A stretch of 64,000 bases of DNA from an uncultured Planctomycetia bacterium (GTDB lineage: Bacteria; Omnitrophota; Gorgyraeia; Gorgyraeales; Gorgyraeaceae): assembly GCA_964652265.1 (NCBI GenBank), contig CAZZAL010000002.1, positions 33,426 to 97,425 on the forward strand, given 5' to 3'. Of the stretch, positions 2,630 through 4,648 are shown piece after piece; the stretch's first letter is position 1, and each line of letters starts with the position of its first letter. A program made the position numbers and the translations under genes. A model generated the notes under the pieces. That model searched no databases, was not told the origin of the DNA, and saw nothing but the letters and a program-made list of their open reading frames with translations.

Positions 2630-3658
2630 ATGCCAGAGTTAAGAAGAGATCCTATAATCGGAAGATGGGTAATAATCTCGGTTGAGAGGGCAAAAAGACC
2701 GACTGACTTTAAGATCTCTCATATAAAGGAGGCAGAAGGCGTGTGTCCGTTTTGCGAGGGGCATGAGAAAGATACGCTTCCAGAGGTCTATGCGATCAGA
2801 AAGCGGAGCTCAAAAAAAGATGGACCTGGCTGGAATGTCAGGGTGGTGCCGAGTATATCCGAGAGATTAGATGTAAGTTATAGCCTGGATAGACGCGGTG
2901 TCGGCATGTATGATGTGATGGATCCTATCGGGGCACATGAGGTAATAATAGAGTCGCCAAAGCATTTCGCAGATATCCATGAATTGCCTGCGAAACAAAT
3001 AGAGAATGTGATAAATGCGAGTTCCAAAAGGATTACAGAGTTAGGAAAAGACCAGCGCCTTAAATATTGCCTGCTTTTTAAGAATCACGGATTAAGGGCA
3101 GGGGGTTCAAAGGCCACAAAGCACGTACGATCTCAGATCATAGCTACGCCTGTCACGCCTACAAGGGTCAAGGAAGAGCTCAGGGGAGCCAGGTTTTATT
3201 ATAAATATAAAGAGCGGTGCATATTCTGTGATTTGTTGAGGCAGGAGTTTGACAATGCCAGCCGCATTGTCATGGATACAAAGACTATTGTGGCTATCGC
3301 GCCGTTTGCCTCAAGGTTTCCTTTTGAGGTGTGGATATTGCCGAAAAAACATTGTTCAGATTTCAGGGATATTGGAAGGGCTGAGGTGAGGGACCTCGCA
3401 ATTGTATTTAAAAGATTATTCGGAAAGCTCTCAAAAGCACTTAATGACCCGCCGTATAATTATATGTTGCATACTGTGCCTTTCAGACACGCAAAAAGAC
3501 CTGGCTACTGGCATACTATAAAAGAAGACTATCATTGGCACATAGAAGTTACACCGCGTATAACGCATATAGCGGGTTTTGAATGGGGTTCGGGATTTTA
3601 TATAAACTCAATGCCTCCTGAGGAGGCAGCAAGATATCTGCGGGAGACAAAACTTTAG
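2630..3658 (+). CDS. GalT-like (HIT superfamily, hexose-1-phosphate nucleotidyltransferase / ADP-glucose phosphorylase-like) paralog with degenerate active site
   Basis: CPFCEGHE zinc knuckle, [10 protein letters not shown] and C-terminal HWHIEVTPR...[11 protein letters not shown] are as in GalT-family proteins. The HxHxQ position reads KHVRSQ (His 3122-3124, Arg 3128-3130), and the NKFPAL position reads SISERL. Confidence 0.8.
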   Translation: MPELRRDPIIGRWVIISVERAKRPTDFKISHIKEAEGVCPFCEGHEKDTLPEVYAIRKRSSKKDGPGWNVRVVPSISERLDVSYSLDRRGVGMYDVMDPIGAHEVIIESPKHFADIHELPAKQIENVINASSKRITELGKDQRLKYCLLFKNHGLRAGGSKATKHVRSQIIATPVTPTRVKEELRGARFYYKYKERCIFCDLLRQEFDNASRIVMDTKTIVAIAPFASRFPFEVWILPKKHCSDFRDIGRAEVRDLAIVFKRLFGKLSKALNDPPYNYMLHTVPFRHAKRPGYWHTIKEDYHWHIEVTPRITHIAGFEWGSGFYINSMPPEEAARYLRETKL

Positions 3659-4648
3659 ATGTCACAATTGCGACGTGATTCAATAACAGGAAGATGGATA
3701 ATAGTGGATATCAGTGATCCAAAAGGGCCTGATGCGTTTGACCTTAAGCCTCAGTCAAGGAAAGGCGGGGTATGCCCTTTTTGCACAGGCAATGAAAAGA
3801 TGACGCCGCCTGAAGTAGAGGCTGTACGCAAATCCAAGACAAAACATGATGAGCCTGGTTGGTCTGTCAGGGTAGTTCCTAATAAATTTCCTGCCTTGAG
3901 CATAGAGGGTAATTTAGATAAACGTGGCATAGGTCTGTATGATATGACCAATGGCGTTGGCGCACATGAGGTCATTATTGAAAACCCAGATCATGATAAA
4001 GACTTGGCTGATTTAAAAGTAGCTGAGATAAAAGATGTTATTTTTAAATACCGCTCAAGGATCCTGGAATTGGAAAAAGATGAGAGGTTTAAGTATGTAT
4101 TGATTTTTAAGAATCACGGGGAGGCAGCAGGTGCTTCCCTGGAACATGCACATACGCAGCTCGTTGCACTTCCTATTGTACCAAAGAGGGTAAAGGAGGA
4201 GCTGAGTGGTGCTGCCAATTATTTTGGCTATAGAGAAAGATGTGTTTTTTGCGACATGATCGCTCAAGAGCTGCAGGATAAGATAAGGATAGTGTCAGAG
4301 AATGCGGATTTCCTTGCGTTCTGTCCGTTTGTACCGCGCTTTGCCTTTGAGACATGGATATTGCCAAAGAGGCACGATCAAAATTTTAAGTCAATAGATG
4401 ATAAAAGGATTTCTAGTATGGCAGCAATATTAAAGGATACACTTATGAGAGTGAAAAAAGTCTTGAAAGACCCGGCTTACAATTTTATAATACACACTGC
4501 TCCGATTAGAAATGGGATCAATGAGGAGTTTCACTGGCATCTTGAGATAATGCCGAAGTTGACAAGCGTTGCTGGTTTTGAATGGGGTTCAGGATTTTAT
4601 ATTAATCCGACATCACCTGAAGAGGCAGCAAAACATCTAAGAGGATGA
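3659..4648 (+). CDS. GalT-like (HIT superfamily) hexose-1-phosphate nucleotidyltransferase / ADP-glucose phosphorylase-like enzyme, motifs intact
   Basis: [33 protein letters not shown] (His 4145-4147 and 4151-4153) and HWHLEIMPK are all present. The start codon directly abuts the TAG of the upstream paralog (0 nt spacer). Confidence 0.8.

What the first reader, a model, noticed from the sequence alone, without database searches (positions are those of the whole stretch)
2630..4648. Tandem GalT-like HIT paralogs at the head of the glycogen/glycolysis operon; the upstream copy has lost the catalytic His and the NKFPA motif
**Seen in sequence**
- Two about 330-340 aa paralogs sit back to back with a 0-nt spacer (TAG then ATG at 3656-3661).
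- Roughly half of positions look identical by eye; this was not computed.
- Both keep the CPFC zinc knuckle, GAHEVIIE and the C-terminal HWH...[11 protein letters not shown].
- Copy 2 has VVPNKFPAL and EHAHTQ, the HxHxQ motif whose second His is the covalent nucleotidyl acceptor in GalT-family enzymes.
- Copy 1 reads VVPSISERL and KHVRSQ at the same places, so the nucleophile position is Arg (3128-3130).

**Established knowledge**
- GalT enzymes are obligate dimers with active sites built across the interface.
- A plant GalT-like protein is an ADP-glucose phosphorylase.

**Inference**
- The pair may form a catalytic/pseudo-catalytic heterodimer acting on ADP- or UDP-glucose.
- It would be co-transcribed with glgA, GH57 and lower glycolysis, possibly linking glycogen turnover to G1P without ATP expenditure.
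- I do not know of a described function for such a degenerate partner.
Basis: partly seen in the sequence, partly recalled or inferred. Interest (0 to 1): 0.62.

Follow-up and report, generated by a model that had tools for sequence, protein, structure and literature searches.

The report
Catalytic plus dead GalT-like subunit pair
Two adjacent sister genes in an Omnitrophota bacterium appear to encode the live and the dead half of one sugar-nucleotide enzyme related to plant ADP-glucose phosphorylase, each having lost a different essential part, so that probably only the mixed pair has one complete active site.

Summary
Copy 1 (2630-3658) and copy 2 (3659-4648) are 47% identical. Both are closest to Arabidopsis At5g18200 ADP-glucose phosphorylase, a GalT-class HIT enzyme.

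- **Copy 1:** Arg at the nucleophile His column and Ser at the nucleotide-binding Asn column. It is not decaying: 118/120 homologue clusters keep the Arg, it is as conserved as copy 2, and dN/dS is 0.04-0.11.
- **Gene order:** it sits directly upstream of copy 2 in all 25 evaluable Omnitrophota genomes.
- **New finding:** the loss is reciprocal. Copy 2 lineages have lost the N-terminal E-R-x-K-R-P-x-D-F arm, which copy 1 and single-copy relatives keep. In human GALT this arm lies at the partner subunit's active site.
- **Unbiased scan:** 41/41 arm-less catalytic genes have a degenerate upstream partner, and 21/24 arm-bearing ones have none.
- **Natural experiments:** a fusion protein and recombinant single-gene chimeras keep exactly copy 1's arm plus copy 2's catalytic core.

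Best reading: an obligate heterodimer with one composite active site. No physical interaction or activity was tested. glgC lies in the window, so the pair does not replace it. This is a new variant of a known kind (enzyme plus pseudoenzyme paralogue), undescribed in the literature I could search.

The parts
2590..2618 (+). Promoter-like site TTGTCA-17-TATAAT. The -10 box ends 11 nt before the ATG of copy 1, which suggests a very short or absent leader.
   Evidence: This is the best-scoring site in 1000-12000 (11/12 matches). A TATAAT-like box at about the same distance from the ATG recurs in many related loci. It is a consensus match only, not shown to function.
2630..3658 (+). Copy 1 ('R-type', 342 aa): a GalT-class HIT protein with Arg at the nucleophile position, the predicted non-catalytic subunit.
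   Evidence: ORF. Pfam PF01087 and PF02744 matches. 1Z84 match E 6.8e-67. AF2 model pLDDT 85, pTM 0.87, with best fold match 1Z84 at TM 0.82/0.90. The 120 homologue clusters range from 57 to 100% identity.
2684..2710 (+). Copy 1 N-terminal arm E19-R20-A-K-R23-P-T-D26-F27. It corresponds to E. coli GalT Arg28/Arg31 and human GALT Arg48/Arg51.
   Evidence: R119/120 and R118/120 among R-type clusters. The motif is invariant in single-copy bacterial, archaeal and plant relatives. In human GALT, Arg48 and Arg57 lie in the chain opposite Gln188 (PMC5081055).
2744..2755 (+). Copy 1 zinc knuckle C39-P-F-C42. The other zinc ligands, His112 and His165, are also kept.
   Evidence: C39, C42, H112 and H165 are invariant in alignment A2. 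These columns correspond to At5g18200 C63, C66, H133 and H184.
2852..2854 (+). Copy 1 Ser75 in place of the nucleotide-binding Asn (At5g18200 Asn94, E. coli GalT Asn77).
   Evidence: Ser in 115/120 R-type clusters, against Asn in 120/120 H-type clusters. Listed in the site table.
3119..3136 (+). Copy 1 K164-H-V-R167-S-Q169. The zinc-ligand His is kept, the nucleophile His is replaced by Arg (3128-3130), and the Gln is kept. A two-residue insertion lies just upstream.
   Evidence: HMMER alignments to 1Z84 and 2H39. Arg in 118/120 clusters and 26/26 genomes. Two metagenome loci have Lys instead.
3572..3607 (+). Copy 1 C-terminal loop A315[11 protein letters not shown]. It is equivalent to the hexose-binding loop that GalT donates to the partner subunit's site.
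   Evidence: AGFEWG is invariant in 120/120 clusters. It is the only such conserved motif with pLDDT below 50 in the monomer model (residues 315-320). The equivalence to GALT Lys334-Gln346, which binds Glc-1-P together with the other chain, rests plus my own alignment by eye to the E. coli sequence.
3656..3661 (+). TAG-ATG junction with 0-nt spacer, in frame. GGGAG lies at 3642-3646.
   Evidence: In related genomes the gap is -14 to +113 nt, mostly 0, -1 (TAATG) or +8, and the frame relation varies. The conserved feature is therefore tight coupling, not read-through.
3659..4648 (+). Copy 2 ('H-type', 329 aa): the predicted catalytic subunit, ADP-glucose-phosphorylase-like.
   Evidence: ORF. 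1Z84 match E 5.4e-71, against 4.5e-23 for E. coli GalT. It carries the complete set of same-chain (cis) catalytic motifs.
3713..3739 (+). Copy 2 degenerate N-terminal arm S19-D-P-K-G-P-D-A-F27. Both Arg residues are lost.
   Evidence: In H-type clusters the commonest residues at the first Arg column are Asn, His and Asp, and the second Arg is present in 23/120. The first Arg is absent from all 26 H-type sequences in the 26-genome alignment.
3881..3883 (+). Copy 2 Asn75 of VPNKFPAL, the nucleotide-binding Asn.
   Evidence: Asn in 120/120 H-type clusters.
4142..4159 (+). Copy 2 E162-H-A-H165-T-Q167, the HxHxQ motif. His165 (4151-4153) is the predicted nucleotidyl acceptor.
   Evidence: It aligns with At5g18200 H184-S-H186-S-Q188. 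His is present in 120/120 clusters.
4571..4606 (+). Copy 2 C-terminal loop A305[11 protein letters not shown]. In a heterodimer this loop would face the dead site of copy 1.
   Evidence: It is still nearly invariant (117-120/120). I use this as the main argument that the dead site is not functionless.
4662..11533 (+). Downstream genes of the predicted operon: gap 4662-5672, glgA 5694-7121, GH57 7136-9067, pgk 9139-10323, tpiA 10392-11150, secG 11165-11533.
   Evidence: ORFs. glgA is the ADP-glucose type by TIGR02095. GH57 carries the AmyA/4-alpha-glucanotransferase middle and C-terminal domains. Synteny is shown.
11567..11594 (+). Terminator-like hairpin (12-bp stem followed by a T run) after secG.
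   Evidence: This is a consensus match only.
16695..17909 (+). glgC (glucose-1-phosphate adenylyltransferase). This is context, not part of the pair.
   Evidence: TIGR02091 467 bits (cut-off 424.9) and NF001947 568 bits (cut-off 470).

Best explanation
**What it is**
The two genes encode the two different subunits of one dimeric HIT-superfamily nucleotidyl transferase. It belongs to the At5g18200 (ADP-glucose phosphorylase) branch of the GalT class.

**How the enzymes of this class work** (established knowledge)
- They are dimers, and each active site is built from both chains.
- One chain gives the zinc knuckle, the nucleotide-binding Asn and the HxHxQ nucleophile.
- The other chain gives an N-terminal Arg arm and a C-terminal hexose-binding loop.

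**What happened here**
- After an ancient duplication in Omnitrophota, copy 2 (H-type) kept all the same-chain catalytic elements but lost the N-terminal Arg arm.
- Copy 1 (R-type) kept the arm and the loop but lost the nucleophile (His to Arg) and the nucleotide-binding Asn (to Ser).
- The R:H heterodimer therefore has one complete active site: the copy 2 core plus the copy 1 arm and loop.
- It also has one catalytically dead site.

**Expected chemistry** (inferred by homology)
- ADP-glucose + E-His gives E-His-AMP + glucose-1-P.
- E-His-AMP + Pi then gives ADP, or the reverse.

**The dead site**
It is remodelled rather than decayed.
- It has an invariant positive charge (Arg or Lys) at the former nucleophile position.
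- It keeps the hexose and phosphate contacts and still faces an invariant partner loop.
- It probably still binds a phosphate or sugar phosphate without turnover. This last step is inference.

**Shown versus inferred**
- Shown: homology, column assignments, conservation, reciprocal motif loss, strict co-occurrence, the fusion and the chimera forms.
- Inferred: physical heterodimer, substrate identity, any ligand at the dead site.
For: 1. **Closest relative.** Both proteins are closest to At5g18200 by sequence (E 5e-71 and 7e-67). Copy 1 is also closest by predicted fold (TM 0.82/0.90).
2. **Nucleophile column.** It is Arg in copy 1, in 118/120 homologue clusters and in 26/26 genomes.
3. **Not a pseudogene.**
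   - Mean R-R identity is 75.0% against 73.7% for H-H over the same 276 genome pairs.
   - dN/dS is 0.04-0.11 for R against 0.03-0.13 for H.
   - All zinc ligands are kept.
4. **Gene order.** R lies directly upstream of H in 25/25 evaluable Omnitrophota genomes, with gaps mostly 0, -1 or +8 nt. R and H are each monophyletic with broadly congruent NJ trees.
5. **Reciprocal loss.**
   - E-R-x-K-R-P-x-D-F is invariant in single-copy bacteria, Methanothrix, Arabidopsis and R-type.
   - H-type has lost it: the first Arg is absent from all 26 sequences in the genome alignment.
6. **The arm works across the interface.** In human GALT, Arg48 and Arg57 lie in the chain opposite Gln188, and the Glc-1-P site combines Lys334-Gln346 of one chain with Gln188 and Asn173 of the other (PMC5081055). 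At5g18200 also has its active sites between subunits (bioRxiv 10.64898/2026.09.13.751320).
7. **Scan seeded with copy 2, so blind to the partner.**
   - 41/41 catalytic genes without the first Arg have an upstream degenerate partner.
   - 21/24 with the Arg have no partner.
   - The two-Arg motif occurs in 0/43 partnered genes against 20/21 single ones.
8. **Natural fusion P0121** (599 aa, followed by gap-pgk-tpiA-secG).
   - The N half keeps the arm, the second HIT subdomain and the loop, but has deleted CPFC, PNKFPAL and HxHxQ.
   - The C half is H-type without its first ~35 residues.
9. **Single-gene chimeras P0336 and P0341** in the same def-fmt-X-gap-glgA-GH57 slot.
   - Residues 1-33 are R-like (75% against 41%).
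   - The body nests inside the H clade.
10. **The dead site is constrained.**
    - Arg or Lys is invariant at the nucleophile column.
    - FKN, Ser and Gln are kept.
    - The H-type loop that would face it is still 117-120/120 conserved.
    - In the P0121 fusion, where that site is deleted, the corresponding loop has three changes at otherwise invariant positions.
Against: - **No direct evidence of physical association.** A multimer prediction could not be run.
- **The trans assignment is borrowed.** It rests on statements about human GALT, one of them citing a homology model, not on the At5g18200 structure.
- **The arm is not universally required.**
  - 24 of 110 canonical family representatives lack the two-Arg motif.
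  - Three of those I examined are single genes with no adjacent partner.
- **The co-occurrence statistics are not independent events.** The pairs descend from one or a few duplications.
- **The H-type still keeps its C-terminal loop.** If the second site were simply dead, that loop should be free to drift.
- **Orphan degenerate copies exist** without an adjacent partner (P0153, P0133).
- **Substrate identity is inferred from the nearest characterised homologue**, which Foldseek aligns to the copy 1 model at 32-34% identity.
Confidence: 0.6

Rival explanations
1. Two separate homodimers. Copy 2 is a self-sufficient enzyme. Copy 1 is an independent non-catalytic binding or regulatory protein, or an enzyme with a new non-covalent mechanism, that merely shares the operon.
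For: - Copy 1 has its own strongly conserved, remodelled pocket: Arg or Lys, Ser75, Gly159, Thr173 and Thr176.
- Some canonical relatives lack the Arg arm yet are single genes.
- Orphan degenerate copies exist.
Against: - It does not explain why arm-less catalytic genes are never found without the partner (0/41).
- It does not explain why the fusion and the chimeras keep exactly copy 1's arm plus copy 2's core.
- The nucleoside-binding stretch of copy 1 is variable among orthologues, which argues against a new nucleotide-using enzyme.
Confidence: 0.15
2. A heterodimer produced purely by neutral complementary degeneration. Copy 1 is only a scaffold that donates the arm and loop, and its own former site has no ligand or regulatory role.
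For: - Lineages have escaped the two-gene state by recombination into one chimeric gene.
- Another lineage fused the genes and fully deleted the dead site.
- Both show the dead site is dispensable in at least some lineages.
Against: - In the two-gene lineages a positive charge at the nucleophile column is kept in about 118/120 clusters, plus a Lys variant.
- Ser75 is kept even in the divergent GHxRSQ clade.
- The H-type loop that would face this site stays invariant.
- A functionless site should vary, as it does in P0121.
Confidence: 0.25
3. Copy 1 is a lineage-specific decaying pseudogene.
For: Loss of the nucleophile and of the NKFPA motif.
Against: - The ORF is intact in every genome.
- dN/dS is 0.04-0.11.
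- It is as conserved as the catalytic copy.
- The zinc ligands are kept.
- The fold is confidently predicted.
- It is conserved across sequence divergence down to about 40%.
Confidence: 0.01
4. The in-frame TAG is read through or recoded, so the window encodes one fused about 672-aa protein.
For: - The two ORFs are in the same frame, separated by a single TAG.
- A genuinely fused homologue exists (P0121).
Against: - The frame relation, the spacer (-14 to +113 nt) and the stop codon (TAA, TAG or TGA) all vary among orthologous loci.
- Copy 2 has its own ATG preceded by GGGAG.
- I found no evidence of recoding in the window.
Confidence: 0.03

Closest known systems
Arabidopsis At5g18200 ADP-glucose phosphorylase (PDB 1Z84, 2H39)
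   Same: - It is the best sequence match of both copies and the best fold match of the copy 1 model.
- It shares the two-HIT-subdomain chain, the CxxC-His-His zinc site, the HxHxQ motif (copy 2), the ERxKRPxDF arm (copy 1) and the GFExG loop.
- Its active sites lie between subunits.
   Different: - The plant enzyme is a homodimer of identical, complete chains.
- Here the functional elements are split between two paralogous chains, so only one of the two sites can be catalytic.
- The activity of the bacterial pair is untested.
E. coli and human galactose-1-phosphate uridylyltransferase (GalT/GALT, class I)
   Same: - Same fold and family: Pfam PF01087/PF02744, and TIGR00209 just above its cut-off.
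- It is an obligate dimer with each site built from both chains.
- Wild-type/Q188R GALT heterodimers are a disease-caused precedent for an active/inactive mixed dimer (mentioned in PMC5081055).
   Different: - The relationship is much more distant: E about 1e-21 to 1e-23, and 118-138 bits against a 448-bit cut-off for the PRK11720 equivalog.
- There is no natural dedicated dead partner.
- The public annotation of both window proteins as 'galactose-1-phosphate uridylyltransferase' is probably wrong for copy 1 and unproven for copy 2.
GlgC/GlgD of Firmicutes and the small/large subunits of plant ADP-glucose pyrophosphorylase (from my own knowledge)
   Same: These also pair a catalytic subunit with a catalytically deficient paralogue, encoded together, in the ADP-glucose/glycogen pathway. 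The deficient subunit modulates the enzyme.
   Different: - The fold is unrelated (nucleotidyl-transferase/LbH, not HIT).
- The active sites are not shared across the interface.
- The reciprocal loss of a trans-acting element in the catalytic subunit has no counterpart there.
Trypanosomatid 'prozymes': AdoMetDC/prozyme and the deoxyhypusine synthase paralogue pair (from my own knowledge)
   Same: A dead paralogue forms an obligate heteromer with a weakly active paralogue, and the sites are built at the interface. This is the general pseudoenzyme-partner principle.
   Different: - Different folds, chemistry and organisms.
- Here the evidence is purely comparative.

Membership tests
Class I GalT / HIT nucleotidyl transferases (Pfam PF01087 + PF02744) | Two-subdomain GalT fold with both Pfam domains above the gathering score | tested here: met
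   - Copy 1 scores 39.9 and 34.9 bits; copy 2 scores 62.7 and 36.0 bits. The cut-offs are 22.1 and 29.2.
- The copy 1 model matches 1Z84, 1HXP, 5IN3 and 6K5Z with TM 0.73-0.82 normalised to the query.
Class I GalT / HIT nucleotidyl transferases | HxHxQ motif whose second His is the covalent nucleotidyl acceptor | tested here: not met
   - Copy 1 has K-H-V-R-S-Q, with Arg167 in the nucleophile column.
- Copy 2 meets the feature (E-H-A-H-T-Q).
- Copy 1 is therefore a structural member but should not be filed as an active transferase.
Class I GalT / HIT nucleotidyl transferases | Nucleotide-binding Asn (E. coli Asn77, At5g18200 Asn94) | tested here: not met
   - Copy 1 has Ser75 (Ser in 115/120 clusters).
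- Copy 2 has Asn75 (Asn in 120/120 clusters).
Class I GalT / HIT nucleotidyl transferases | Structural zinc site (CxxC + His + first His of HxHxQ) | tested here: met
   The ligands are present in both copies. C39, C42, H112 and H165 of copy 1 are invariant in alignment A2.
Class I GalT / HIT nucleotidyl transferases | Dimer with each active site completed by the neighbouring subunit | not testable with these tools
   - This is known for GALT and At5g18200.
- Here it is inferred from reciprocal motif loss, co-occurrence, the fusion and the chimeras.
ADP-glucose phosphorylase (At5g18200-like branch) | Closer to At5g18200 than to true uridylyltransferases | tested here: met
   E 5e-71 and 7e-67 to 1Z84, against about 1e-21 to 1e-23 for E. 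coli GalT and 4e-41 / 6e-34 for P. aerophilum GalT. The fold ranking agrees.
ADP-glucose phosphorylase (At5g18200-like branch) | ADP-glucose + Pi <-> ADP + Glc-1-P activity through an adenylyl-His intermediate | not testable with these tools
   - No assay was possible.
- The context fits: ADP-glucose-type glgA, GH57 and glgC.
- GlgA-GalT-like and GH57-GalT-like fusion proteins exist elsewhere.
Enzyme plus pseudoenzyme-paralogue heteromers (functional class, not a homology family) | Dead paralogue conserved under purifying selection and strictly co-inherited with the active one | tested here: met
   selection; co-occurrence.
Enzyme plus pseudoenzyme-paralogue heteromers | Physical complex with activity dependent on the dead subunit | not testable with these tools
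   This needs co-expression and assays or multimer modelling. Only indirect evidence is available.

The most novel reading that the evidence does not exclude
**The dead site as a sensor.** The former active site of copy 1 may not be a relic. It could be a conserved non-catalytic sensor pocket.
- It carries Arg or Lys at the nucleophile position.
- It retains the hexose and phosphate contacts.
- It still faces an invariant partner loop.

**Proposed role.** The pocket would bind Pi or a hexose phosphate and gate the single live site.
- This would give a HIT-fold ADP-glucose phosphorylase the same catalytic-plus-regulatory-paralogue logic as GlgC/GlgD.
- Together with GlgA, to which relatives are physically fused elsewhere, it would form an ADP-glucose/Glc-1-P shuttle.
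- That shuttle would couple glycogen to the co-transcribed lower glycolysis genes.
Probability: 0.2. Interest if true: 0.75.

Novelty: new variant of a known kind. Interest (0 to 1): 0.55.

Why it matters
- **Annotation.** Hundreds of Omnitrophota proteins now labelled 'galactose-1-phosphate uridylyltransferase' would be non-catalytic subunits. The true enzyme would be a two-gene heterodimer of unknown physiological role in glycogen/ADP-glucose metabolism.
- **Evolution.** The case is unusually clean and testable. Duplication of a homodimer with shared active sites was followed by reciprocal loss of cis and trans elements. Independent lineages then escaped the two-gene state by gene fusion or by recombination into one chimeric gene.
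- **Enzymology.** It gives HIT/GalT enzymologists a natural half-of-sites construct.
- **Open question.** It points at the unresolved role of ADP-glucose phosphorylase-like enzymes, which sit next to or are fused with GlgA and GH57 in many bacteria.

Tried and rejected
1. **The pair replaces GlgC.** Rejected: glgC is in the window.
2. **Stop-codon read-through fusion.** The frame and spacer are not conserved.
3. **Structure prediction of the fused copy1-copy2 chain.**
   - An alignment headed by the natural fusion P0121 put all homologues on its C half, so it was useless as an MSA and was not submitted.
4. **A general rule that any arm-less catalytic member has a degenerate neighbour.** This is false outside this clade (P0143, P0184, P0167 are single).
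5. **Literature.**
   - Searches for ADP-glucose phosphorylase in bacteria, GH57 + uridylyltransferase, DUF4921/DUF4931, and pseudoenzyme + HIT found no description of the degenerate partner.
   - A large alpha-glucan enzyme review does not mention GalT-like proteins.
   - The At5g18200 paper itself is not held, so its kinetic and active-site details come from my memory only.
6. **Promoter and terminator scans.** The overall counts are no higher than in shuffled sequence. Only the positions of the two best sites are suggestive.
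Full report
**1. The observation**

ORFs 2630-3658 (342 aa, copy 1) and 3659-4648 (329 aa, copy 2) lie head to tail on the + strand. TAG is followed directly by ATG, and the two are in the same frame. They are 47% identical (160/338, E 6e-123). Both pass the Pfam GalT N- and C-domain thresholds.

- HMMER alignments to solved structures place copy 1 K-H-V-R-S-Q on At5g18200 S-H-S-H-S-Q (His184 zinc ligand, His186 nucleophile). That column is the Gly of the H186G mutant 2H39.
- Codon 3128-3130 (CGA) is therefore Arg at the nucleophile column.
- Ser75 replaces the nucleotide-binding Asn.

**2. Organism and neighbourhood**

Named homologues are all Candidatus Omnitrophota. 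The gene order is def, fmt | copy 1, copy 2, gap, glgA, GH57, pgk, tpiA, secG.
- glgA is the ADP-glucose type.
- GH57 carries the AmyA/4-alpha-glucanotransferase middle and C-terminal domains.
- The best promoter-like site of the region (11/12) ends 11 nt before the copy 1 ATG.
- A 12-bp hairpin with a T run follows secG. Both are consensus matches only.
- A bona fide glgC sits at 16695-17909, so the pair does not stand in for GlgC.

**3. What the proteins are**

Both copies are far closer to Arabidopsis At5g18200 than to true uridylyltransferases.
- To At5g18200 (ADP-glucose phosphorylase): E 5e-71 and 7e-67.
- To E. coli GalT: about 1e-21 to 1e-23.
- An AF2 model of copy 1 (pLDDT 85, pTM 0.87) matches 1Z84 and 2H39 best, with TM 0.82/0.90.
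- Both scrape past the TIGR00209 cut-off but are far below the PRK11720 equivalog cut-off. This explains the public 'GalT' labels.

**4. Copy 1 is not decaying**
- Of the 120 best homologue clusters (57-100% identity), 118 have Arg at the nucleophile column, 115 have Ser at the Asn column, and all keep the zinc ligands.
- A species-level genome scan gave 27 Omnitrophota loci. In all 25 that are long enough, copy 1 is followed directly by a copy 2 orthologue, with gaps of -14 to +113 nt and mostly 0, -1 or +8.
- Over the same 276 genome pairs, R-type orthologues are 75.0% identical and H-type 73.7%.
- dN/dS is 0.04-0.11 for R against 0.03-0.13 for H.
- In an NJ tree R and H are each monophyletic with similar internal order. 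This indicates one old duplication followed by co-inheritance.
- The 'decaying pseudogene' refutation condition is not met.

**5. The new point: the loss is reciprocal**

A column-by-column comparison of 26 R, 26 H and 28 single-copy relatives, numbered on At5g18200, gave these results.
- R-specific changes cluster on the same-chain catalytic elements: N94S, A180G, a two-residue insertion before His184, H186R, L192T and V195T.
- H-type has lost the N-terminal motif E-R-x-K/R-R-P-x-D-F.
- That motif is invariant in R-type, in single-copy bacteria, in Methanothrix and in Arabidopsis.
- In 120 clusters of each type, R-type keeps the two Arg in 119 and 118.
- In H-type the commonest residues at the first Arg column are Asn, His and Asp, and the second Arg is present in 23/120.
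- The first Arg is absent from all 26 H-type sequences in the genome alignment.
- These Arg residues correspond to E. coli Arg28/Arg31 and human Arg48/Arg51.

The human GALT structure paper states three relevant things.
- The enzyme is an obligate dimer with each site formed by both subunits.
- The Glc-1-P site combines Lys334-Gln346 of one chain with Gln188 and Asn173 of the other.
- Arg48 and Arg57 lie in the chain opposite Gln188.

At5g18200 also has its sites between subunits. An R:H dimer would therefore have two sites.
- One complete site: the H core plus the R arm and R loop.
- One site lacking the nucleophile, the Asn and the partner's arm.

**6. Tests of that reading**

(a) A metagenome scan seeded with copy 2 is blind to the partner.
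- Every catalytic gene lacking the first Arg has an upstream degenerate partner (41/41).
- Of 24 arm-bearing genes, 21 have no partner, 2 have a degenerate partner but have lost the second Arg, and 1 has a canonical neighbour.
- The two-Arg motif occurs in 0/43 partnered genes against 20/21 single ones.
- The Fisher values (about 1e-15) overstate independence, because the pairs share ancestry.
- The pattern holds across sub-clades down to a divergent GHxRSQ/ERARRPAAF group.

(b) A natural fusion, P0121, lies in front of gap-pgk-tpiA-secG.
- Its N half keeps the arm, the second HIT subdomain and the loop, but has deleted the zinc knuckle, PNKFPAL and HxHxQ.
- Its C half is H-type minus its first ~35 residues.

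(c) In three loci the def-fmt-X-gap-glgA-GH57 slot holds a single gene (P0336, P0341).
- Residues 1-33 are R-like (75% against 41%).
- The body nests inside the H clade.
- This is a recombinant that reunites the arm and the catalytic core in one chain.

(d) In the copy 1 monomer model, one of the only two segments with pLDDT below 50 is the invariant AGFEWG loop. This is as expected for an element that packs on the partner. The evidence is weak.

**7. Is the dead site functionless?**

Probably not in the two-gene lineages.
- The nucleophile column is Arg, or Lys in two loci.
- FKN, Ser and Gln are retained.
- The H-type C-terminal loop that would face this site is still 117-120/120 conserved.
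- The nucleoside-binding stretch of R-type is variable.
- In P0121, where the site is deleted, the corresponding loop has three changes at otherwise invariant positions. This is a single sequence.

I infer a phosphate or sugar-phosphate-binding, non-catalytic pocket. A purely neutral scaffold remains a serious rival, because some lineages dispensed with the site.

**8. Limits**
- No physical or enzymatic evidence is available.
- Multimer prediction was not possible.
- The trans role of the arm is taken from GALT, not from the At5g18200 structure, whose paper I could not read.
- In the wider family, 24/110 canonical representatives lack the arm, and three I examined are single genes. The arm is therefore not universally essential.
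- Orphan degenerate copies exist.
- ADP-glucose as substrate is inferred from the nearest characterised homologue and from context.
  - The context includes GlgA-GalT-like and GH57-GalT-like fusion proteins elsewhere.
  - It also includes single-copy relatives next to glgA or GH57.
- glgA-GH57 follow the pair in only one Omnitrophota sub-clade. The constant neighbour is gap.

**9. Comparison and novelty**

The pair works like known enzyme/pseudoenzyme paralogue heteromers such as GlgC/GlgD, the plant AGPase small and large subunits, and the trypanosome prozymes. Those comparisons come from my own knowledge.

It belongs structurally to the class I GalT/HIT family on the At5g18200 branch. Copy 1 fails two defining catalytic features, so it should not be annotated as a transferase.

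I found no description of such a partner in the searchable literature.

Verdict: a new variant of a known kind. It is moderately surprising to a specialist and directly testable.

Noticed in passing
window 2590-2632; L001-L024 upstream of the R-type gene: A TATAAT-like box sits about 10-12 nt upstream of the copy 1 ATG with no Shine-Dalgarno sequence. The same arrangement recurs in many orthologous loci. This suggests a leaderless or near-leaderless first gene of the operon.
   Followed up: partly
window 16695-17909: glgC (above the TIGR02091 and NF001947 cut-offs) lies 5 kb downstream of the glgA operon. It follows an oligopeptide ABC transporter and precedes an N-acetyltransferase and an aconitase-family gene, so it is not in the glgA operon.
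   Followed up: partly
window 7136-9067: The GH57 protein carries the AmyA/4-alpha-glucanotransferase middle and C-terminal domains. It scores only 27 bits on the Thermococcales branching-enzyme model, so it is probably not a branching enzyme.
   Followed up: partly
P0154 cluster (814 aa, 19 members, Coprothermobacterota and others); P0158 and P0164: These are natural fusion proteins. One type joins glycogen synthase to a canonical GalT-like domain. The other joins a GH57 C-terminal part to a canonical GalT-like domain. Both tie this enzyme branch physically to alpha-glucan metabolism.
   Followed up: partly
P0135 (871 aa, Eutreptiella gymnastica transcript): A eukaryotic protein with two complete canonical GalT-like units (both HxHSQ) in one chain, that is, a covalent dimer.
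   Followed up: no
L116 1823-4011: A tandem of two canonical copies. Both have the His nucleophile, the Asn and the intact Arg arm. This may be a pre-degeneration state or two different specificities.
   Followed up: no
L071 and L072 (P0143, P0184): A separate clade of canonical, arm-less GalT-like genes. They are translationally coupled to a LigT/2',5'-RNA-ligase-like phosphoesterase rather than to glycogen genes.
   Followed up: no
L037, L038, L039, L053; P0133, P0138, P0153, P0168, P0215, P0252: Several other degenerate clades exist in the same family. Variations include His to Tyr, Val, Ile, Ser or Cys at the nucleophile column, Gln to Asp, Glu or His, and loss of a conserved His (GANEV, GADEV). 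Some have no adjacent partner.
   Followed up: partly
window 25202-29859: An 883-aa fusion of AMP-binding, phosphopantetheine-binding and acyltransferase domains (Aas-like) overlaps the start of a 670-aa protein that has a spermine/spermidine-synthase domain.
   Followed up: no
window 34332-43223: An arginine-biosynthesis cluster: a semialdehyde dehydrogenase of argC type, ArgJ, a class-III aminotransferase, argininosuccinate synthase and argininosuccinate lyase. It is followed by an Orn/DAP/Arg decarboxylase.
   Followed up: no
Copy 1 has a 100%-identical database entry (P0001, contigs up to 127 kb). The best listed hit for copy 2 is only 96% identical. This is probably a cluster-representative effect.
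   Followed up: no
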